DNA of 64,000 nucleotides, taken from the NCBI GenBank assembly GCA_965231055.1, contig OZ246411.1:732500-796499 (forward strand). The letters are read 5' to 3'. How positions within the stretch are numbered: position 1 is the first letter of the stretch; each line of letters begins with the position of its first letter. A model generated the notes under the pieces. That model had not been told where the DNA came from. It did not search any database and was given only the letters and a program-made list of their open reading frames with translations. The stretch comes from an uncultured Candidatus Saccharibacteria bacterium (GTDB lineage: Bacteria > Patescibacteriota > CALEFQ01 > G965231055). The translations under genes and the position numbers were made by a program. Below are positions 4,590 to 59,692 of the stretch, piece after piece.

Positions 4590-4961
4590 TTATTTTTTAA
4601 GTTCTTCTGATTTTCTATGACTATGATCACTTTTCTTTTTTCCATCACTACCTATTTTACAAAGATACTCCGGAGTCATATGTATACATTTCACAGGGCA
4701 AACATTGGCACAGATTCCACAACCCTTGCAAAATTCAAAATTAATAGGATTTTCTTCATCTATTTTTCCATTTTTTATATTCCAAATTCCCTCTGGACAA
4801 TAATTAAAACAAGCTAAACAATGAATGCATTTTTTAGCATCTCGCTGGGGCCTTAGAGTTCTCCATGATCCGGTTTTGTATTCAATAGAAGAACCAGGGG
4901 TTCTTATGGTACCACCTACATCAGTCTTTATTTTAGTTGTCTTGGTGTTTTCTTTTGGCAT
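4590..4961 (-). CDS. porD: pyruvate:ferredoxin oxidoreductase delta subunit (2x[4Fe-4S] ferredoxin)
   Basis: Two CxxCxxCxxxCP motifs (CIHCLACFNYCP, CKGCGICANVCP). Confidence 0.85.
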   Translation of the reverse strand: MPKENTKTTKIKTDVGGTIRTPGSSIEYKTGSWRTLRPQRDAKKCIHCLACFNYCPEGIWNIKNGKIDEENPINFEFCKGCGICANVCPVKCIHMTPEYLCKIGSDGKKKSDHSHRKSEELKK

Positions 4962-19101: not shown

Positions 19102-19764
19102 CTAAATGTCTTGTCTAGCATTAAACCCTTTCTCAATATCCTCAAACACCTTTTCTCTATCCTGCTCACCATTAATTTCTATGAGGTTACCTTTATTTCT
19201 ATAATATTCAACCAAGGGTTTTGTATTGCGCTCATATTCATCCAATCTCCTTGTAATAGCTTCTTTTGTCTCATCAGCCCTTACTTTTAGCACTGTACCG
19301 CATTTTTTACAAACTTCTATGCCTCTATCACGATCGCCATACTTTTCACCGCATTTAGGACATTCTTTGCGAATAGAAAGTCTTTTGAAAGTTTCTTCTC
19401 TGCTGATATTTATGAAAATAAATACTGACTCTTCTCTATCCCATTCCTTCATTTTTTGTTCAAAATGATCTTTTTGAGCAAGGTTTCTGGGATAACCGTC
19501 AAAGACCACCGCGTCAGAACTTATTACAAGATCTTTGGCTTTTTCGTCAAAAAATTTATTTATATCTGATTCAGGAAGCAGGTTACCTTTATCAATTATT
19601 GATGATATGTGTTTACCAAGCGCGGAACCACTTGCAATTTCATCTCTCAGAAGTTTTCCAGATTCATAGAAACCAAAACCATGTTTTTCAACCAGAAGCT
19701 TGGCCTGAGTACCTTTTCCAGAAGCCTGCGGACCTGTGATAATAATATTTAGCTTTTTATTCAT
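19102..19764 (-). CDS. adk: adenylate kinase (Zn-binding lid)
   Basis: GPQASGKGTQ P-loop; lid CPKCG...CKKCG. Confidence 0.9.
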   Translation of the reverse strand: MNKKLNIIITGPQASGKGTQAKLLVEKHGFGFYESGKLLRDEIASGSALGKHISSIIDKGNLLPESDINKFFDEKAKDLVISSDAVVFDGYPRNLAQKDHFEQKMKEWDREESVFIFINISREETFKRLSIRKECPKCGEKYGDRDRGIEVCKKCGTVLKVRADETKEAITRRLDEYERNTKPLVEYYRNKGNLIEINGEQDREKVFEDIEKGFNARQDI

Positions 19765-24639: not shown

Positions 24640-24825
24640 TTACCAACTTGATTTTTTGATTCCTGGTATATCACCATTATCAGCAAGCTCTCTAAAACAT
24701 ATTCTGCAAACACCAAATTCTCTCATATATCCTCTTTTTCTTCCGCATCTCCAACATCGTCTCACGTTTCTGGTTGAGAATTTTGGCTTTCTATTTGATT
24801 TTGCGACTTGATTCTTTGTTGCCAT
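24640..24825 (-). CDS. rpsZ: 30S ribosomal protein S14 type Z (Zn-binding)
   Basis: 61 aa with [20 protein letters not shown]. Confidence 0.9.
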
Positions 24826-24827
24826 AG

Positions 24828-25433
24828 CTATTTCTTAGGTTCATTAGCTTTTTTATCTTTCTTCTTTTTCTTATCCTTGCTCTTTTCTATCTTCTCCTTG
24901 GTAAAAGGAAATCCCATCATCTCAAGCATCCTGATAGAGTGATCTCTTTCCTTTGCCTTGATAGTGATAACTACTTCCAATCCGTGAATTTTTTCAACTT
25001 CATCTGGATTTATTTCTGGAAAAGCTGTGTGCTCTCTTAGTCCCACCGCGAGATTACCTCTCTGATCTACAACTGAATAAGGTATTCCTCTAAAATCTCT
25101 AACTCTAGGCAAAGCAACGTTCACAAACTTATCAAAAAATGCATACATTCTCTCTCCTCTAAGTGTAACCATAACTCCAACGATCTGACCTTTTCTGGTG
25201 CCAAAACCCGAAACTGCTCTTTTTGATTTGGTTTTGACTGACTTTTGTCCTGTGATTCTGTTCAATGTGCTCTCGTAGTTTTCTAGCAAAGTCTTGTCTT
25301 CTGAGGCTTTTCCAGCACCGATATTGAGAGTGATCTTTGAAAGAAAAGGAACCTCGTGATCATTATCAAGCTTTAGCTCTTTTTTAAGCTTTTTCTTGAT
25401 TTCTTTATTAAATTTTTCTTTAAGTCTATTCAT
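24828..25433 (-). CDS. rplE: 50S ribosomal protein L5
   Basis: position in spc cluster between rplX and S14 and conserved core; K-rich C-terminal tail. Confidence 0.9.
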
Positions 25434-25747
25434 TAGAATTCTGATTTACATTTTTTACATACTCTAGTGTTTTTATTTCCATCCTTCTTCTTTCCGGTTC
25501 TTGATGGTTTGCCACACTTGGGACAAACTATCATAGCATTTGATATATCAAAATATGCATTAAACTCAACTAGTTGACCTTTTTCTCCTTGCTTCTTTGG
25601 TTTGACACTTTTCTTGCGCTTGTTCATACCTTCCACAACTATCTTGCTCTTTCTTGGATCAACCTTAATAACCTTGCCGGTTTTTCCCTTATCTTTTCCC
25701 GCAAGCATTTTTACTGTGTCGCCTTTTTTTACTTTTAGAATTGACAT
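25433..25747 (-). CDS. rplX: 50S ribosomal protein L24 with C-terminal C4 zinc-ribbon extension
   Basis: KOW motif KKGDTVKMLAGKDKGKTGKV; tail CPKCG...x17...CKKC. Confidence 0.9.
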   Translation of the reverse strand: MSILKVKKGDTVKMLAGKDKGKTGKVIKVDPRKSKIVVEGMNKRKKSVKPKKQGEKGQLVEFNAYFDISNAMIVCPKCGKPSRTGKKKDGNKNTRVCKKCKSEF

Positions 25748-31658: not shown

Positions 31659-32867
31659 TTATTTGATAATCTTGACAACAACTCCTGCTCCAACTGTCTT
31701 TCCACCTTCGCGTATGGCGAATTTCATTTTCTCTTCCATAGCGACTGGAGCTGTAAGTTTGACTTTTAATGTAATTGTATCTCCAGGCATAACCATTTCA
31801 GTATTTTCAGGAAGTTCTATTTCGCCAGTAACATCTGTGGTTCTAAAATAAAACTGTGGTTTGTATCCTTTGAAGAATGGGGTATGTCTTCCACCTTCTT
31901 CTTTGCCTAGAATATAAAGTTCTGTTTCAAATTCAGTGTGAGGTGTAATTGATCCTGGCTTTGCAAGAATCTGTCCTCTTTCAACTTCATCTTTCTTTGT
32001 ACCTCGAAGAAGGACTCCGGCGTTGTCACCAGCTACTCCTTTATCAAGAGTCTTGTTGAACATTTCTATTCCCGTAACAACTGTCTTTTGGGTATCCTTT
32101 AGACCAACTATTTCAACGTTGTCATTTATGTTTACTTCACCTCTATCAATTCTACCAGTTACCACTGTTCCTCTTCCTTCAATTGAGAAAACATCTTCAA
32201 TAGCCATAAGGAATGGTTTGTCAGTTTCTCTTTTTGGCTCAGGAATTTTTTCATCCAAAGCTTTGACCAATTCGGTAATAGGTTTGCATTTGGCGCAATC
32301 ATCTTTACCGCAACCACATTCTAGAGCTTGAAGAGCTGAACCTCTAACTACGGCTGCATTATCACCATCAAAATTGTATTTGGTCAAAAGTTCTCTTACT
32401 TCTGCTTCTACCAAATCAATCAATTCTGGATCGTCAACTTGGTCAACTTTGTTTAAGAAAACAACTATAGTAGGAACACCTACCTGACCAGCGAGCAAAA
32501 TGTGCTCTTTGGTTTGAGGCATGGCTCCATCAGCAGCGGAAACCACAAGAATAGCACCGTCCATCTGGGCAGCACCAGTAATCATGTTCTTAATATAGTC
32601 AGCATGCCCTGGGCAGTCTACGTGAGCGTAGTGTCTCTTATCGCTCTCATATTCAACGTGTGAAGTAGAAATAGTAATACCTCTTTCTCTTTCCTCAGGA
32701 GCATTATCAATAGTATCAAAAGCTCTTGCCTTTGATTTACCTTGCGCAGCTAAACAAGTAGTAATAGCGGCGGTTAAAGTGGTTTTACCATGATCTACGT
32801 GACCAATAGTACCAACGTTTACGTGTGGTTTACTTCGATCAAATGTTGTTTTTGCTTCGTCTGACAT
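31659..32867 (-). CDS. tuf: elongation factor Tu, carrying a Cys4 knuckle insertion in domain I
   Basis: [18 protein letters not shown] and NKVD G-motifs; insertion [12 protein letters not shown] at aa 183-194. Confidence 0.95.
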
Positions 32868-43003: not shown

Positions 43004-43177
43004 ATGTACAAAATAGATAAAAGTAAATGTGCTAAATGTGGGACTTGCCTATCTGCTTGTGCAAGTGAATCCATAAAAACTAATAGCGATGGAAGTTTCG
43101 AAATAGACAATGCCAAGTGCATAGAATGCGGAGCCTGCAAAGCGGTTTGTCCAAACGACGCTATTATCGAAGAATAA
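43004..43177 (+). CDS. 2x[4Fe-4S] ferredoxin
   Basis: CAKCGTCLSAC and CIECGACKAVCP motifs; ATG at 43004 preferred over the upstream GTG at 42977. Confidence 0.75.
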   Translation: MYKIDKSKCAKCGTCLSACASESIKTNSDGSFEIDNAKCIECGACKAVCPNDAIIEE

Positions 43178-48794: not shown

Positions 48795-48831
48795 GTGGAT
48801 AGATTTTTTATCCACACTTAGAGTATCCACA
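48795..48831. promoter_or_regulatory. cluster of three DnaA-box-like 9-mers (TGTGGATAg, TTATCCACA, gTATCCACA) around the nrdJ stop codon
   Basis: gtgtggata-gatttttta-tccacac inverted repeat plus a third copy inside the last codons. Confidence 0.35.
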
Positions 48832-51800
48832 GCTTCGGCAGATAAGGCATCCTTCGGAAAATTCAACAGTGCCTCCGCATTCTGGACACATAGGATTGTA
48901 TCCCAATTCATTGTTTGTGGTGTAAACTTTTTCTTTCTTTTTTTCTTCAACCACAGTTGGCTTCTCTACTTTTTCAACCTTTGGCATAACTAAATCTAGC
49001 TTGAGTTTGACGCTAGGCTTTTCTTCCTTCTTGAATTCCAGTTTTAGTTTACTTTTTCTTTCTATATATCTCTTGAGTGCTAAAGCTATACCATCAGAGC
49101 AAGAAAAAATCGTTCCGCCTTTTGTCATGATGGGAGAAGGGCATCTCACTCCTTCAAGCTGTTTTACTATTTCATTTGGATCTATTCCTGATCTTAGCGC
49201 TATAGAAATCAGTCTTCCTATTGATTCTGAATATGACGCGGGGCATCCTCCTGATTTTCCAAGCTTCGCGAAAACTTCAAACACACTATTCTCATCCTCA
49301 TTTATAGTTACATGCAAAGGACCACATCCAGTCGTGATGACTTCGGTGGTACCCATGACAACTTCTGGTCTCTCTCTTGGTTCAACTGAACCTATGGAAC
49401 CGATGGTTACTTTTGATTTGTCAGCAGATAAACCACTTCCTCTCACAAGCACCTGTTCATCTTTTGATTTGTCTCTATAAATAGTAATTCCCTTGCATCC
49501 GGTACTGTATGCTAGCATGTAGGCTTTTTTCACTTGGTCCACTGTCGCATCCTCTTTGAAATTTACAGTTTTGGAAACAGCGTTGTCAGTATATTTTTGA
49601 AATGAGGCCTGCATTTTTACATGCCACTCTGGATCGATATCATGAGCAGTCACGAAAATTCTTTTTACTTTTTCGGGAACTTCATCGAGATGCTGAACTC
49701 CCCCCTCTGCCTTTACTTTTTCTATTAATTCTTCTGAATAAAAGCCTTCTTCCTTTGCAATTCTTTCAAACTCAGGATGCATCACGACTTGATTTTCTCC
49801 CCCCATTGAATTTTGCATCGTATAGCTTATGGCAAACAACGGCTCTATCCCAGCTGAACAATCTGCGACTATGCTTATAGATCCCGTTGGAGCAATAGTA
49901 GTCACAGTAGCATTTCGCATCGCATCATATTTGCCATTGAAAGTGCTTTCTTTAAACGCTGGAAAGGATCCTCTTTCTTGTCCTAATTTTTGGGATTCGC
50001 TTCTTGCTACCTTGTTTACAAAACCCATAACAACCTCGGCCATATCCGTAGCTTCTTTGCTGTTATAAGGAATTCCAAGTTTAATAAGCATATCAGCCCA
50101 GCCCATTATTCCTAGTCCAGATTTTCTCGTTCTCTTGGTGGCTGATTCTATTTCGGGAAGCACATATTCATTTGATGAAGTTATGTCATCAAGAAATCTC
50201 ACACCTGTTCTCACTACATCCTCTAATCTTCTCCAATCAATTTTGCCATCTTTAACAAACCTGGAAAGATTGACGCTACCAAGATTACACGACTCATAAG
50301 GAAACAATGGCTGTTCTCCGCATGGATTGGTGGCGGTCATCTTACCTAGCCCCGGCACGGTATTACCTTTTTGAATAGTATCAAGAAAAACAACACCAGG
50401 ATCTCCCGAACCCCAAGCGTGTCTAGAAATAAGATCAAATAAATTAGTTGCGCTTACTTCTTTTACACATGCTTTTGTCCTAGGATCTATGAGTTTAAAA
50501 CTCTTATCATCCCTCACGGCTTCCATAAATTCATTTGTAATGCCCACAGAAAGATTGAGATTTTCAACTTCACCAGGAACATCTTTGCATTTTATAAATG
50601 TTTCAATATCAGGATGATCTATATTTAGTATAGCCATTGCGCCCATTTTTCTACCACCTCTGCCTTTTATAGTTCTCATTGTGGCATTTAACGCTCTTAG
50701 AAATTCAACTGGACCAGCTGCGTTTTCTCCAGTGGAACTTACTTTTGAATAGCTAGATCTTATATCTGAGAGATTGAATCCTGTACCACCTCCACTTCGG
50801 AGTATCTGAATATTGTCTCTTACTGTGTTGAATATATCGTTTATGCTGTCATGCATAGGTAGCACAAAACACTTGGACAAGGTTCTGTTTCGTTGTCCTG
50901 CAAAAATCAAAGTGCCCCCACAAAGAAATTCTAAATTCTTTTGAACTTCTGAAAATTTGTTTTTTATTTTTTTGCACTCTTCGTCGGAGCAAAATTCTTT
51001 TTCAGATCGTCCTACGAAATCAGATATTCTATCAAACAATTCTTCGGGAGTTTCTATTACTTCGCCTTTCTCATTTTTGGCAAGAGCTCGCTTTTCCAAA
51101 ACCTTTATCGCATTTGGAGTAAGCTTTGCTTTTTCTTCTTTTGCACCTTGCTCTTCAGGCTGTTTAATTTCAGATGGTTTCTTCTCTTCTTTTTTAACTC
51201 CCATTATCTGAAATTCTTTGCATCCATCTCTATAAATAGTAATACCCTTACATCCAAGCTCATAGGAAAGCATGAAAGCATCTTTGACTTGGTCTATCGT
51301 GGCGTCATTTGGGAAATTTATAGTTTTAGAAACGGCATTGTCTGTATATTTCTGCGCGTTGGCTTGAATTTTTAGATGCCATTCGTATGAAACGTCATGA
51401 GAAGTTACAAAAACTTTTCTCACTGCCTCAGGTATTTCTTCTAAATCCTTTATACTCCCACGAGAAGCTATTTTCTTCATAAGCTCTTCCGAGTAAAAAC
51501 CTTTTTCTTTGGCAACTTCTTCAAAAACAGGATCAGTGATAACTATTTCTTGGTAACTATCACCCTTGAACAATGCTTTTCTTACAGAAACGAGTGAGAA
51601 CACCGGCTCTATACCAGAAGAACATCCGGCGATAAGACTTATGGATCCAGTTGGCGCAATCGTTGTAAGAGTTGCATTTCTTGGTCTGAAACCCGTATCA
51701 ACAAAAATACTCTCTTCAAAAGCTGGAAAAACTCCACGCTCTTTTGCTAGTTCGCAGGAGCGTTTCATCCCTTCTTCTTTTATGAATTTCATAATCTCAC

Positions 51801-52929
51801 CAGATAGTTTTATAGCCTCATCGCTATTATAAGGAATACCTAGCTTATAAAGCATATGAGAAAATCCCATAATTCCAAGGCCTATCTTTCTCGTTCGCTT
51901 TACATTTTCATCTATTTTTTGAAGCGGGAATTTGTTTTCTTCTATAACATTATCCATAAAATGCACTGCGTCTCTCACAGTATTTCTAAGCATATTCCAA
52001 TCCATCACTCCATCTCTGAAATGATTGGTCAAAACTATTGATCCCAAGTTACATGACTCATAAGGAAGCAATGGCTGCTCTCCGCATGGGTTGGTAGCGT
52101 CTATTTTGCCAAGTTTAGGAGTCGGGTTTGATCTTTGTATTCTATCTAGATAAATAGCTCCTGGATCAGCACACTCCCAAGCTTTTTTCGCTATCAAGTC
52201 AAAAACTTCTCTAGCTTTTATTTTTCTAACAACTTCGTTGTTGTGAGGATTTTTCAGATCGTATTCTTTGTTGTTTTTTACCTTCTCCATGAAATCATCA
52301 GTAATTCCCACAGAAATATTGAAATTTTTTATACTTGATCCGCTGTCTTTTAGTTTGATGAAATCCAAAATATCTGGATGATCCACATTCAAAATTCCCA
52401 TATTACCTCCGTGTCTTTTGCTGCCTTGCAAAATTTGAGATAAAGCCGTATCAAAAGTTTTTAGGTAATGAATGGGACCCGCTGCCACATTTGGAATTCC
52501 CCTAACCGAACTTCCTCTTGGTCTTATCGGTGAAAAATTGAATCCAGTTCCTCCGTTATTTTTTTGTATGACCGCTGCATCTGACAATGCCTGAAAAATA
52601 TCTGTGAGCGAATCAGATAGAGGCACCACAAAACAAGCAGAATATTGTCCATTGTGATTGGTTCCTGCTTCAAGTAGCACGGGGCTATTTGGCAAAAATC
52701 TGAGTTGCGCCATCATCTTATAAAACCTGCGGGCATTCTCATCCACAGCTACGGCATCTTTACCGAATTTTTTATCTGCTTCAGAGATACACTTTGCTAC
52801 TCTCCATAACATTTCATCTGGGGTCTCTAAAATATTACCTTTTTCATCAGTTACTAAATAGCGCTTCTTGATAATTTCAAGAGCTGCTTTTGAAAATTTT
52901 GGTTGTGGTAAATCTTTTGGAACTGTCAT
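48808..52929 (-). CDS. nrdJ: tandem fusion of two class II (adenosylcobalamin-dependent) ribonucleotide reductase NrdJ modules; C-terminal Zn ribbon
   Basis: 1373 aa, uninterrupted; module 1 (51201..52929) and module 2 (48808..51120) each have the Cys-containing S(A/K)CFV, NPCGEQPL, ESCNLGS, PTGSIS and KTVNF motifs; joined by a K/E-rich linker (51121..51200); C-terminus CPECGG..CLICRSCG. Confidence 0.8.
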   Translation of the reverse strand: MTVPKDLPQPKFSKAALEIIKKRYLVTDEKGNILETPDEMLWRVAKCISEADKKFGKDAVAVDENARRFYKMMAQLRFLPNSPVLLEAGTNHNGQYSACFVVPLSDSLTDIFQALSDAAVIQKNNGGTGFNFSPIRPRGSSVRGIPNVAAGPIHYLKTFDTALSQILQGSKRHGGNMGILNVDHPDILDFIKLKDSGSSIKNFNISVGITDDFMEKVKNNKEYDLKNPHNNEVVRKIKAREVFDLIAKKAWECADPGAIYLDRIQRSNPTPKLGKIDATNPCGEQPLLPYESCNLGSIVLTNHFRDGVMDWNMLRNTVRDAVHFMDNVIEENKFPLQKIDENVKRTRKIGLGIMGFSHMLYKLGIPYNSDEAIKLSGEIMKFIKEEGMKRSCELAKERGVFPAFEESIFVDTGFRPRNATLTTIAPTGSISLIAGCSSGIEPVFSLVSVRKALFKGDSYQEIVITDPVFEEVAKEKGFYSEELMKKIASRGSIKDLEEIPEAVRKVFVTSHDVSYEWHLKIQANAQKYTDNAVSKTINFPNDATIDQVKDAFMLSYELGCKGITIYRDGCKEFQIMGVKKEEKKPSEIKQPEEQGAKEEKAKLTPNAIKVLEKRALAKNEKGEVIETPEELFDRISDFVGRSEKEFCSDEECKKIKNKFSEVQKNLEFLCGGTLIFAGQRNRTLSKCFVLPMHDSINDIFNTVRDNIQILRSGGGTGFNLSDIRSSYSKVSSTGENAAGPVEFLRALNATMRTIKGRGGRKMGAMAILNIDHPDIETFIKCKDVPGEVENLNLSVGITNEFMEAVRDDKSFKLIDPRTKACVKEVSATNLFDLISRHAWGSGDPGVVFLDTIQKGNTVPGLGKMTATNPCGEQPLFPYESCNLGSVNLSRFVKDGKIDWRRLEDVVRTGVRFLDDITSSNEYVLPEIESATKRTRKSGLGIMGWADMLIKLGIPYNSKEATDMAEVVMGFVNKVARSESQKLGQERGSFPAFKESTFNGKYDAMRNATVTTIAPTGSISIVADCSAGIEPLFAISYTMQNSMGGENQVVMHPEFERIAKEEGFYSEELIEKVKAEGGVQHLDEVPEKVKRIFVTAHDIDPEWHVKMQASFQKYTDNAVSKTVNFKEDATVDQVKKAYMLAYSTGCKGITIYRDKSKDEQVLVRGSGLSADKSKVTIGSIGSVEPRERPEVVMGTTEVITTGCGPLHVTINEDENSVFEVFAKLGKSGGCPASYSESIGRLISIALRSGIDPNEIVKQLEGVRCPSPIMTKGGTIFSCSDGIALALKRYIERKSKLKLEFKKEEKPSVKLKLDLVMPKVEKVEKPTVVEEKKKEKVYTTNNELGYNPMCPECGGTVEFSEGCLICRSCGYSKCG

Positions 52930-57916: not shown

Positions 57917-57947
57917 AAAACACTAAAAAACTTTAGTGTTTTTTTAT
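57917..57947. terminator. bidirectional rho-independent terminator between sortase and the Cys-rich protein gene
   Basis: acactaaa / tttagtgt stem, aaac loop, flanked by A-run and T-run. Confidence 0.6.
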
Positions 57948-59692
57948 TTCATAGCACCCTCATAACACTCTCCGCAATAAATATTATAGCCATCTTCCTC
58001 TTTGTATCTAGAATCTATTTCTTTACCACATTTATTGCATTTTATTTTATTGAGGTTATAGGCATGAGGTATTTCCATGAGAAATCTTTTTCTATAGCGC
58101 ACTGCGGGATGAAATCTCGGAATAGGAATACCATTTTTCCTATAATACTCTAGTTCTTTTTTTGTTATACGAAATGGTTTTTTTGACTCTTCACAAATAA
58201 TAATTTTATTAAGAATATCATCATTTACATCATCGATATGGTCTGGGATATTCTTAGCTACCAAATCACTATCTACCACCGTGTCCACAACTGATTTCGC
58301 GAGCGAATAAGAATAATCGTAGTCCATGCCAAAATACTCCAAGTCTTTTTTGATTTTTGATTCGTAGTTATTTTCATCTGGGAAAAACATATTTGCGACA
58401 GTATCTATGTATGGAATACTACCAAAAGCAAATGGCAAAAATTCTCCATACTCTTTTCGCTCAAGCATTTTAATCTTAATCTGCTCAATGAGTTCAAAGT
58501 ATTCTTTCTTTTCGTATTGCTTATTCAAAATGCAATATTTTTTACTGCGAAGCCCCACACAACCAAAACAATCCTGACACCCCATGCATAGATCACAATA
58601 TTCCATATCCCTAGATCCCCTAACCATATTCGAAAACTTGATCATATAATCCTGCATGCCTCCACCTATAGTTTCATACATCACTTCGCTCGCTATTCCA
58701 CCATAGTCCACATCAAGACAATCCTTCCTTCTTCCAGAATTGGTGCAATATCTCAAGTTTTCACTCTCCATCTCATTAAACACATCAAAGGCATTCTTGC
58801 ATCGCCACATACTATCGCCAACTGAATTCTCGCACTGACCAACCAAGACACCTTCATGAGGACTTGCTTTCATCATGTTTACAAAATCTAACTTCAGTTT
58901 TTCAATCGCAGAGTAACTACCCAAATTCATACTTTCCATTTTTGCGAGATAATCATCCTTTGAAAGTTGTTTGTTTTCAAAACAGTATTCCTTATGCCTC
59001 AGATTTGAACACATAAAACAATTTTTGCAATCCCTGCATCCAGCTAAAAAATAACTATCTCTAGAATTTTTAGTATTGAAGCAGTACTTACAACCATAGT
59101 TTTGCTCGCAAGAAACATTTTCATAACACAATTCAGAATAAGCGCACGAAAACATATCAACACAATCCCTAGATTCACCAAAAAAATCACCATACATACA
59201 ATCCTCATTTTTGTATGTAACAAATATCATGTAACAATTTTTATCATTGCCGGTATTATTTGAGTATTGCACATTTTCATTTGAAGGATCGCCTATTAGG
59301 TGAGGTCTTGGCGTAGCTATCCTTAATTTCTGGAATTGTTTAAAAAAAGATTTGTTTAAATCCAAATCCATCCCGTACGTAGCTCCATCAAATCCATCAC
59401 TCCACCACTCTTTTTCATCATAAATTTTATATGGGGAATCATTGCGATACATTGAAATCAAATCAACTCCAGTTTTACCACACTTTCTACTAAAAAGATT
59501 CCGTTCGTTTCTAAAAACCATTCTCCTTTCTCTTCTACACAATGGACATAGAGTAGGAATGGGGACTACAAATTTTTCATAGAAATCAAGATCTTCTTGA
59601 TATACAAAAAAAGCCTTTCCGCAAATTCTACAAGTTTTGTCTCCTGGCTGAGTTTTATCCAAAACATTCAAAATATTTGTTTCAAAGCTCAT
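57944..59692 (-). CDS. very cysteine-rich cytoplasmic protein (582 aa, about 50 Cys) with terminal zinc-ribbon-like motifs and internally duplicated Cys-ladder region
   Basis: N-terminus CRICGK..FY.K..VPIPTLCPLCRRERR echoed near C-terminus (KKPF..YYRKNGIPIPRFHP) followed by CNKCGK...CGEC; two internal segments of repeated C-x2-C / x-C-x-x-x-F units ending in YCFENKQ / YCILNKQ. Confidence 0.6.
   Translation of the reverse strand: MSFETNILNVLDKTQPGDKTCRICGKAFFVYQEDLDFYEKFVVPIPTLCPLCRRERRMVFRNERNLFSRKCGKTGVDLISMYRNDSPYKIYDEKEWWSDGFDGATYGMDLDLNKSFFKQFQKLRIATPRPHLIGDPSNENVQYSNNTGNDKNCYMIFVTYKNEDCMYGDFFGESRDCVDMFSCAYSELCYENVSCEQNYGCKYCFNTKNSRDSYFLAGCRDCKNCFMCSNLRHKEYCFENKQLSKDDYLAKMESMNLGSYSAIEKLKLDFVNMMKASPHEGVLVGQCENSVGDSMWRCKNAFDVFNEMESENLRYCTNSGRRKDCLDVDYGGIASEVMYETIGGGMQDYMIKFSNMVRGSRDMEYCDLCMGCQDCFGCVGLRSKKYCILNKQYEKKEYFELIEQIKIKMLERKEYGEFLPFAFGSIPYIDTVANMFFPDENNYESKIKKDLEYFGMDYDYSYSLAKSVVDTVVDSDLVAKNIPDHIDDVNDDILNKIIICEESKKPFRITKKELEYYRKNGIPIPRFHPAVRYRKRFLMEIPHAYNLNKIKCNKCGKEIDSRYKEEDGYNIYCGECYEGAMK

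What the first reader, a model, noticed from the sequence alone, without database searches (positions are those of the whole stretch)
32286..32318. EF-Tu carries a Cys4 knuckle ([12 protein letters not shown]) in domain I
Where E. coli EF-Tu has GDAEWEAKILELAGFLDSY (the helix after the G5 SAL motif), this tuf has [24 protein letters not shown]. This adds four cysteines with C-x-C-x5-C-x2-C spacing, typical of a small zinc knuckle. The rest of the protein is canonical, so this is not a sequencing artefact of a divergent copy. A metal site in the bacterial EF-Tu G domain is not a standard textbook feature, although zinc ribbons occur in the related archaeal/eukaryotic initiation factor gamma subunits. 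It could stabilise the domain or mediate a lineage-specific interaction.
Basis: partly seen in the sequence, partly recalled or inferred. Interest (0 to 1): 0.5.

Follow-up and report, generated by a model that had tools for sequence, protein, structure and literature searches.

The report
Four-cysteine metal loop in EF-Tu
This bacterium's elongation factor Tu carries a conserved four-cysteine loop, probably a structural zinc site, which also occurs in more than 20 bacterial phyla but has no solved structure and no paper I could find.

Summary
The tuf gene (31659..32867, minus strand) encodes a canonical EF-Tu. Residues 184-194 read [11 protein letters not shown] at exactly 32286..32318. The true spacing is C-x-C-x4-C-x2-C, not x5.

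The loop is 5 residues longer than in E. coli EF-Tu. It lies between the short helix after the G5 SAL motif and the last G-domain helix.

It is not lineage-specific. In a metagenome sample not selected for cysteines, 5 of 120 EF-Tu loops had the motif.

The cysteines are kept or lost almost all-or-none. Among the 119 closest relatives, 58 have four cysteines, 24 have three (the second is missing) and 37 have none.

AlphaFold2 models an ordered loop (pLDDT 93-96), but no coordinates were returned, so cysteine distances were not measured. No PDB EF-Tu has the motif, and ten literature searches found nothing.

Best reading: a structural Zn(Cys)4 staple, the zinc-binding ('C+') state of a with/without-cysteine split like that of zinc-binding ribosomal proteins. 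Metal binding is inferred, not shown.

The parts
31659..32867 (-). tuf gene: elongation factor Tu, 402 aa, the only copy in the window. Gene order is rpsL-rpsG-fusA-tuf-rpsJ-rplC.
   Evidence: TIGR00485, 708 bits against a 522 cut-off; neighbouring genes; one GHVDHGKT motif in the window
32331..32342 (-). G5 motif G-S-A-L (residues 176-179), the guanine-base recognition loop. It lies four residues upstream of Cys184.
32316..32336 (-). Short helix (residues 178-184) ending at Cys184
   Evidence: DSSP on the AlphaFold2 model
32286..32318 (-). Cys4 loop [11 protein letters not shown] (residues 184-194), spacing C-x-C-x4-C-x2-C. It is part of a segment 5 residues longer than in E. coli-type EF-Tu.
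32316..32318 (-). Cys184 (TGT), proposed ligand 1
32310..32312 (-). Cys186 (TGC), proposed ligand 2. This is the cysteine missing in the three-cysteine relatives.
32295..32297 (-). Cys191 (TGC), proposed ligand 3
32286..32288 (-). Cys194 (TGC), proposed ligand 4, at the N-terminal cap of the following helix
32247..32285 (-). Last helix of the G domain (residues 195-207, [13 protein letters not shown])

Best explanation
The tuf gene encodes the cysteine-containing ('C+') form of bacterial EF-Tu. The connection between the short helix after the G5 SAL motif and the last G-domain helix is an 11-residue loop. Its four cysteines (184, 186, 191, 194) most likely bind one Zn2+ tetrahedrally.

In this reading the C-G-C-G half and the C-x-x-C half, which sits at the N-cap of the next helix, close the loop into a very small knuckle. 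The knuckle would act as a structural staple next to the guanine-recognition element. It would stabilise this part of the G domain, not create a new activity.

Cysteine-less EF-Tu forms, including E. coli, Thermus and many Patescibacteria, replace the staple with ordinary loop packing. The state has been lost many times. This parallels the zinc-binding versus zinc-free forms of ribosomal proteins and the Cys4 versus hydrogen-bonded LID of adenylate kinase.

Shown: the motif, its position, its conservation, its wide and patchy distribution, and its all-or-none pattern of retention. Inferred: metal binding, zinc as the metal, and a stabilising role.
For: - All 120 hits in species genomes share E-C-G-C-G-K-x-[D/E]-C-x-x-C-x-x-I. 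Positions the search did not force are also conserved: Gly after Cys1 93%, Gly after Cys2 93%, Lys 70%, Asp/Glu 91%, Ile 90%. Both Cys codons are used at each site.
- The hits come from more than 20 phylum-level groups.
- Retention is bimodal. In a metagenome sample not selected for cysteines, loop Cys counts were 0:80, 1:31, 2:4, 3:0, four or more:5. Among the 119 closest relatives they were 4:58, 3:24, 0:37, with none at 1 or 2.
- Outside the loop, the window's protein is closer to cysteine-less Patescibacteria EF-Tu (80-83% identity) than to Cys4 EF-Tu of other phyla (66-76%). A loop-masked neighbour-joining tree needs at least 19 state changes, against about 80 for shuffled labels. That fits repeated loss of a shared motif.
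- AlphaFold2 gives helix 178-184, an ordered loop 185-194 and helix 195-207. Mean pLDDT is 93 for residues 181-190 and 96 for 191-200.
- E. coli RNA polymerase beta' has ECLCGK...CEKCG at Cys70/72/85/88 (sequence confirmed). That these four cysteines bind zinc is from my own knowledge.
- The same window keeps other Cys4 forms: uS14, uL24 and the adenylate kinase LID.
Against: - No metal has been measured, and no coordinates were available to check sulphur-to-sulphur distances.
- Cys186 is dispensable in the nearest sister lineages (84-86% identical), where Asp, Ser, Thr or Lys replaces it. So a strict Cys4 site is not essential there.
- About a third of the close relatives, and most bacteria, do without the site, so any benefit is conditional.
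- C-x-C is not the classic zinc-knuckle half-site.
- The sub-pattern C-x4-C-x2-C also matches the first three ligands of plant-type [2Fe-2S] ferredoxins (my own knowledge). Many carriers are anaerobes, so iron cannot be excluded.
Confidence: 0.6

Rival explanations
1. The loop binds iron: either a [2Fe-2S] cluster or a rubredoxin-like single Fe. This would make EF-Tu oxygen- or redox-sensitive in anaerobes.
For: - Cys186-x4-Cys191-x2-Cys194 matches the first three ligands of plant-type [2Fe-2S] ferredoxins (my own knowledge).
- Most labelled carriers belong to anaerobic lineages: Clostridia, Syntrophomonadaceae, sulfate reducers, anammox bacteria, Omnitrophota, Patescibacteria.
- Thermus uS4 is reported to hold an Fe-S cluster (PMC10450194).
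Against: - The fourth ligand lies only two residues from the second, unlike ferredoxins.
- An 11-residue surface loop gives little shielding for a cluster.
- Carriers also include lineages I take to be aerobic: Thermoleophilia, Gemmatimonadota, Sulfobacillus, Nitrospirota (the lifestyles are my own knowledge).
- The closest sequence precedent, the beta' zinc-binding domain, binds zinc (my own knowledge).
Confidence: 0.12
2. No metal is bound. The four thiols form one or two reversible disulfides, a thiol switch that shuts down or protects EF-Tu under oxidative stress.
For: - EF-Tu is a known target of oxidation at another cysteine in cyanobacteria and chloroplasts (PMC10212517, listed).
- Retention in pairs or all-or-none would also fit disulfide partners.
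Against: - The cytoplasm is reducing, and most carriers are anaerobes.
- Three-cysteine variants are common (24 of 119), which fits a metal site with one replaceable ligand better than two disulfide pairs.
- The conserved Gly and Lys pattern matches a known zinc site.
Confidence: 0.1
3. The loop is a docking surface for a partner specific to Patescibacteria.
For: The loop is solvent-exposed in the sense that it is an insertion between two surface helices.
Against: - The same motif occurs in more than 20 phyla.
- The window's nearest relatives vary it or lack it.
- Only about 7 non-cysteine residues are available, and several of them vary.
Confidence: 0.04
4. The motif is a neutral relic with no present function.
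For: It has been lost many times without loss of EF-Tu function.
Against: The four cysteines and two glycines are invariant or nearly so across phyla separated by billions of years, with synonymous codon turnover. Cysteines are otherwise rare in this protein: 6 in 402 residues.
Confidence: 0.04

Closest known systems
Zinc-binding (C+) versus zinc-free (C-) forms of bacterial ribosomal proteins: uS14, bS18, uL24, bL28, bL31, bL32, bL33, bL36 (Makarova, Ponomarev and Koonin 2001, as cited in PMC10450194)
   Same: - A translation-machinery protein exists with or without a Cys4 site.
- The distribution across phyla is patchy, with recurrent loss.
- Intermediate variants with one cysteine replaced by Asp exist, like the CCCD/CCCE forms of bL33. 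Here ECGDG and ECKDK are the equivalents.
- The same window has C+ uS14 and C+ uL24.
   Different: - EF-Tu was not among the C+ ribosomal proteins listed in the one paper of that literature I read (PMC10450194).
- The site is an 11-residue loop, not a zinc ribbon.
- No C+/C- paralogue pair or Zur control was seen. The one two-copy case found has two C+ copies (L035 and L117).
- Zinc binding is untested.
Adenylate kinase LID: Cys4 zinc site in Gram-positive and thermophilic bacteria, a hydrogen-bond network in E. coli (my own knowledge)
   Same: A small structural Cys4 site in a nucleotide-binding housekeeping protein is interchangeable with non-metal packing. The window's own Adk has the Cys4 LID, CPKC...CKKC.
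   Different: The fold and the position differ. The Adk LID is a mobile lid over the active site. The EF-Tu loop is a helix-to-helix connector.
N-terminal zinc-binding domain of bacterial RNA polymerase beta' (E. coli Cys70, 72, 85, 88)
   Same: The local signature is nearly the same: E-C-x-C-G-K ... C-x-K-C-G, against EF-Tu E-C-G-C-G-K-x-x-C-x-K-C-K (for the beta' sequence).
   Different: In beta' the two half-sites are 12 residues apart, not 4. The proteins are unrelated. This is a precedent for the chemistry only.
Zinc knuckle of archaeal/eukaryotic initiation factor 2 gamma
   Same: It is a Cys4 site inside the G domain of a member of the same translational GTPase family.
   Different: In P. 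abyssi aIF2-gamma (1kk0) the CPNC...CPYC knuckle lies between G2 (RGITI) and G3 (DAPGH). After G5 (SAL) there is no insertion. It is an independent insertion at another site.
Thermus EF-Tu, with extra residues at the same loop (1eft, 1exm)
   Same: The insertion lies in the same loop after G5 in a bacterial EF-Tu. Thermus chains are 405 aa, and the loop region does not align with the window's.
   Different: It has no cysteines and a different sequence. The length of its insertion is from my memory and was not measured here.
Same-length cysteine-less loops (E-[AS]-x-S-x-D-...-K-P-I, as in PDB 5w75 'EAPDDPNHEAYKPI')
   Same: Loop length is equal or within 1-2 residues, with the same flanks (E before, K-P-I after).
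   Different: All four cysteine positions are replaced. These are probably the degenerate C- descendants.

Membership tests
Bacterial elongation factor Tu (NCBIfam TIGR00485 equivalog) | Whole-protein score above the curated cut-off | tested here: met
   708.2 bits against a cut-off of 522.4
Bacterial elongation factor Tu (NCBIfam TIGR00485 equivalog) | Three domains (GTP_EFTU, D2, D3) and intact G1-G5 motifs | tested here: met
   All three Pfam domains match end to end. GHVDHGKT 22-29, RGITI 62-66, DCPGH 84-88, NKVD 139-142, GSAL 176-179.
Bacterial elongation factor Tu (NCBIfam TIGR00485 equivalog) | str-operon context (rpsL-rpsG-fusA-tuf-rpsJ) | tested here: met
Structural Zn(Cys)4 site (zinc knuckle or staple) | Four cysteines in two closely spaced pairs | tested here: met
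   C184-x-C186 and C191-x2-C194, within 11 residues
Structural Zn(Cys)4 site (zinc knuckle or staple) | All four ligands conserved together across homologues | tested here: met
   Counts are bimodal at 4 or 0 in the unselected sample. The motif occurs in at least 120 species. Caveat: 24 of 119 close relatives lack Cys2.
Structural Zn(Cys)4 site (zinc knuckle or staple) | Thiol sulphurs within tetrahedral coordination distance in a structure or model | not testable with these tools
   The AlphaFold2 model shows an ordered loop with pLDDT 93-96, but no coordinates were returned.
Structural Zn(Cys)4 site (zinc knuckle or staple) | Stoichiometric zinc in the purified protein | not testable with these tools
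   Needs experiment. No PDB EF-Tu carries the motif.
C+/C- dimorphic translation proteins | Orthologues with and without the Cys site, distributed patchily across and within phyla | tested here: met
C+/C- dimorphic translation proteins | A C- paralogue in the same genome, induced under zinc limitation (Zur) | tested here: inconclusive
   The window has one tuf. The only two-copy contig seen has two C+ copies (L035 and L117). Whole genomes were not searched.
aIF2-gamma / eIF2-gamma type zinc knuckle | Insertion at the same place in the G domain | tested here: not met
   The aIF2-gamma knuckle lies between G2 and G3. Nothing is inserted after G5.
Plant-type [2Fe-2S] ferredoxin cluster motif | C-x4-C-x2-C plus a fourth cysteine about 29 residues downstream | tested here: not met
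   The first three spacings match (C186, C191, C194), but there is no downstream cysteine. The fourth, C184, is upstream. The motif definition is from my own knowledge.

The most novel reading that the evidence does not exclude
The Cys4 loop was already present in early bacteria. It makes EF-Tu, usually the most abundant protein in a bacterial cell, the largest zinc (or redox-labile metal) pool in its carriers. Translation elongation would then be coupled directly to zinc supply and oxidative stress. The many losses would reflect adaptation to oxygen or to zinc scarcity. Published ancestral EF-Tu reconstructions, all of which lack the loop (6gfu, 6i8r, 7bbn aligned; 5w76 and 6htw ranked below a cysteine-less loop), would then be missing an ancestral stabilising element.
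Probability: 0.2. Interest if true: 0.8.

Novelty: new variant of a known kind. Interest (0 to 1): 0.55.

Why it matters
EF-Tu is one of the best-studied and most abundant bacterial proteins. Its structures and biochemistry come almost entirely from cysteine-less forms (E. coli, Thermus).

If the loop binds zinc, three things follow:
- In carrier lineages, including many anaerobes, anammox bacteria, syntrophs and Patescibacteria, EF-Tu would need roughly one zinc per molecule. That would dominate the cell's zinc budget.
- The with/without-cysteine split known for ribosomal proteins would extend to a translation factor.
- Zinc-thiolate sites are sensitive to oxidants, so EF-Tu could be a built-in redox or zinc checkpoint on elongation.

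It also bears on ancestral EF-Tu resurrection studies, whose reconstructed proteins lack the loop. The question can be tested directly with a recombinant protein and a metal assay.

Tried and rejected
- A protein search with a 93-aa fragment around the loop returned only short gene fragments. These showed the motif outside Patescibacteria (for example Carboxydothermus) but were useless for modelling. I repeated the search with the full protein.
None were there. Foldseek against the PDB only confirmed the EF-Tu fold in the GTP form, TM 0.89 to 1eft and 1exm.
- Ten full-text literature searches found no paper on a zinc or Cys4 site in bacterial EF-Tu. The single 'Zn2+ (1)' entry for EF-Tu in PMC11943819 comes from a table of metal counts per protein family and does not describe this motif.
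I rewrote it from the reverse strand, anchored on ATGCC (Met-Pro). This excludes E. coli-like 'LLP' and cyanobacterial 'LMA' EF-Tu, so the 5/120 frequency is rough.
The Patescibacteria assignment rests on named neighbours at 77-83% identity.
- Homology with the aIF2-gamma knuckle: rejected, different site.
- Sequencing artefact: rejected, identical protein in independent assemblies.
- Single horizontal-transfer clade: rejected, Cys4 sequences do not group together once the loop is masked.
- tRNA and Rfam scans of the window found nothing.

Full report
**1. What is in the sequence**

The ORF at 31659..32867 on the minus strand encodes a 402-aa protein. It lies in the classical gene order rpsL, rpsG, fusA, tuf, rpsJ, rplC.

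The protein is a canonical EF-Tu:
- Pfam GTP_EFTU, D2 and D3 all match end to end.
- The NCBIfam EF-Tu equivalog TIGR00485 scores 708 bits against a cut-off of 522.
- G1 to G5 are intact.
- The AlphaFold2 model superposes on GTP-form Thermus EF-Tu with TM 0.89.

The spacing is C-x-C-x4-C-x2-C, not x5. Only two other cysteines occur in the protein.

Against solved EF-Tu structures the segment is a 5-residue insertion. It begins four residues after the G5 motif GSAL, residues 176-179.

The identical protein is on record from an 843,892-bp NCBI contig and from an independent Logan assembly, so this is not an assembly error. There is one tuf in the window.

**2. Is it conserved among relatives?**

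The 119 other best full-length hits are 76-95% identical. Where they are named, they are Patescibacteria: Andersenbacteria, Parcubacteria, Pacebacteria, Moranbacteria. Their loop states are as follows:

| Loop state | Number of relatives | Examples |
|---|---|---|
| Four cysteines, same spacing | 58 | ECGCGKEDCPKCKP |
| Three cysteines (second missing or spacing shifted) | 24 | ECGDGNPEC, ECSKHDPDC, ECKSKNEDC, Andersenbacteria-type ECAQKGAKDCKDC |
| No cysteines, loop two residues shorter | 37 | EAKSADDEAAKPI |

No relative has one or two cysteines. The closest sister sequences after the 95% one, at 84-86% identity, are all three-cysteine forms. The site is frequently kept, sometimes reduced to three ligands and sometimes erased.

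**3. How widespread is it?**

I wrote a degenerate DNA pattern for G-S-A-L-x4-C-x-C-x4-C-x2-C-x10-D-x3-P. It matched the window once and matched none of 100 shuffles.

All 120 hits translate to EF-Tu with the consensus [14 protein letters not shown][DE]CxxCxxI.

Positions the pattern did not force are also conserved:
- Gly after Cys1: 93%
- Gly after Cys2: 93%
- Lys: 70%
- Asp/Glu before Cys3: 91%
- Ile before the helix: 90%

TGT and TGC are both used at each cysteine.

Record titles place the hits as follows:
- Bacillota, 35, including Moorella, Pelotomaculum, Desulforudis, Sulfobacillus, Symbiobacterium, Caloramator and Syntrophomonas
- Deltaproteobacteria-type lineages, 22
- Planctomycetota including anammox genera, 11
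- Omnitrophota, 7
- Thermoleophilia and other Actinomycetota, 6
- Patescibacteria/Saccharibacteria, 5
- Smaller numbers in Nitrospirota, Nitrospinota, Aquificota, Thermodesulfobacteriota, Binatota, Armatimonadota, Acidobacteriota, Gemmatimonadota, Chloroflexota, Elusimicrobiota and others

A partial sequence from Carboxydothermus islandicus also has the motif.

For a rough frequency I scanned metagenome contigs with a pattern that constrains only the flanks (GSAL ... DKPFxMP), not the loop. Of the first 120 EF-Tu loops returned, 5 carry the Cys4 motif. Loop cysteine counts were 0:80, 1:31, 2:4, 3:0, four or more:5. The Met-Pro anchor excludes some lineages, so about 4% is only an order of magnitude.

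**4. One clade or many?**

Outside the loop, the window's EF-Tu is 80-83% identical to cysteine-less Patescibacteria EF-Tu. It is only 66-76% identical to Cys4 EF-Tu from other phyla.

I built a neighbour-joining tree of 259 sequences with the loop masked. On it the with/without-cysteine state needs at least 19 changes, against about 80 when labels are shuffled. Cys-site sequences fall into 23 separate pure clades.

The tree is crude and the sample is enriched for Cys4, so the root state cannot be read from it. But nineteen independent inventions of the same 11-residue motif are implausible. A shared old motif with repeated loss is the simplest account. Same-length or nearly same-length cysteine-less loops look like its degenerate descendants. 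Examples are ESTSTDPNSPDYKCI, EAKSADDEAAKPI and the PDB 5w75 loop EAPDDPNHEAYKPI.

**5. Structure**

AlphaFold2 with 58 aligned sequences gave mean pLDDT 81.9 and pTM 0.81. It predicts a helix at 178-184, a non-helical ordered segment at 185-194 and a helix at 195-207. Ten-residue pLDDT means are 93 (181-190) and 96 (191-200).

So Cys184 ends one helix, Cys194 caps the next, and Cys186 and Cys191 lie in the short loop between them. That arrangement would easily bring four thiols together.

No chain in the PDB sequence set has this motif. The best local match is a cysteine-less loop.

**6. What it most likely is**

The pattern fits a small structural Zn(Cys)4 site:
- four cysteines in two tight pairs
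- glycines after the first two
- a C-x2-C at a helix N-cap
- joint retention or joint loss

A close sequence precedent is the zinc-binding domain of RNA polymerase beta'. The E. coli sequence reads ECLCGK...CEKCG. That Cys70/72/85/88 bind zinc is from my own knowledge.

The evolutionary behaviour matches the C+/C- ribosomal proteins, including Cys-to-Asp intermediates such as those described for bL33 (PMC10450194). It also matches the Cys4 versus hydrogen-bonded LID of adenylate kinase (my own knowledge).

The same window encodes C+ uS14 (61 aa), a uL24 with CPKC...CKKC and an adenylate kinase with a Cys4 LID. So this genome tends to keep such sites.

I therefore read the loop as a zinc staple that stiffens the connection next to the guanine-recognition motif. 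Metal binding, the identity of the metal and the stabilising effect are inferences.

**7. Rivals**

- Iron or a [2Fe-2S] cluster is possible. C-x4-C-x2-C resembles plant-type ferredoxin ligands, and many carriers are anaerobes. However, the fourth ligand is in the wrong place and the loop is very small.
- A metal-free disulfide switch is possible. It fits the common three-cysteine variants and the reducing cytoplasm of anaerobes less well.
- A lineage-specific docking surface is unlikely, given the distribution across phyla.
- A neutral relic is unlikely, given invariance with synonymous codon turnover.

**8. Comparison with the aIF2-gamma knuckle**

In P. abyssi aIF2-gamma (1kk0) the four cysteines (CPNC...CPYC) lie between G2 and G3. 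The region after G5 has no insertion. The two sites are independent.

**9. Novelty**

Ten full-text searches found no description of a zinc or Cys4 site in bacterial EF-Tu. No solved structure contains it. The ancestral and consensus EF-Tu structures aligned (6gfu, 6i8r, 7bbn) lack it. 5w76, 6htw and 5w7q scored below the cysteine-less 5w75 loop, so they cannot carry it either.

The library does not cover most subscription journals, so an earlier mention cannot be excluded. The sequences themselves have long been public.

I rate it as a new variant of a known kind: an EF-Tu with a probable metal staple that behaves like the C+/C- translation proteins. Interest is moderate to fairly high because EF-Tu is so abundant and so well studied, and because a simple metal assay would settle the question.

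Noticed in passing
window 24640-24825 (-), 25433-25747 (-), 19102-19764 (-): The same window keeps three other Cys4 forms: a 61-aa uS14 (CWRC...CRIC), a uL24 with CPKC...CKKC, and an adenylate kinase whose LID has CPKC...CKKC. The genome seems to retain cysteine-type metal sites in housekeeping proteins generally.
   Followed up: partly
window 48808-52929 (-): An unusually long (1373 aa) ribonucleotide reductase. The Pfam barrel domain matches in three separate stretches. It also has a TSCPD domain and a CPEC...C..C cysteine cluster. No intein domain was reported, and the reason for the extra length is unknown.
   Followed up: no
window 57944-59692 (-): A 582-aa ORF with no Pfam match that contains a CRIC...CPLC cysteine pair-of-pairs.
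   Followed up: no
window 4590-4961 (-) and 43004-43177 (+): Two small ORFs with ferredoxin-type cysteine motifs. The first (123 aa) matches Pfam 4Fe-4S dicluster domains. The second (57 aa) was not scanned.
   Followed up: partly
window 1-64000: No tRNA gene and no Rfam family at gathering score in 64 kb, although the region holds the str, S10 and spc ribosomal operons.
   Followed up: partly
L086 (JACQXV010000210.1): A 2.6-kb contig labelled 'Candidatus Woesearchaeota archaeon' carries a bacterial Cys4 EF-Tu whose loop resembles those of anammox Planctomycetota. It is probably a mis-binned contig.
   Followed up: no
L036, L053 (Sulfobacillus harzensis), L008: After the Cys4 loop these EF-Tu-like genes read EDTHSI or EDAHES instead of the almost invariant EDVFSI at the start of domain 2. 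They may be divergent second copies.
   Followed up: no
L035 and L117 (contig JAURAC010000004.1, Ca. Subterrananammoxibius): Two tuf copies about 16 kb apart on one anammox contig have identical Cys4 loops. There is no C+/C- pair here.
   Followed up: partly
L122-L241 (metagenome sample): 31 of 120 EF-Tu loops have exactly one cysteine. In many of these (for example L123, L133, L199) it sits in 'K-C-[IV]', directly before the last G-domain helix. Some Cys4 loops have a fifth cysteine at that spot (CKCI).
   Followed up: no
window 32023-32331 (+): A 102-aa ORF on the opposite strand overlaps the loop region of tuf. It is most likely a chance antisense frame inside a highly expressed gene.
   Followed up: no
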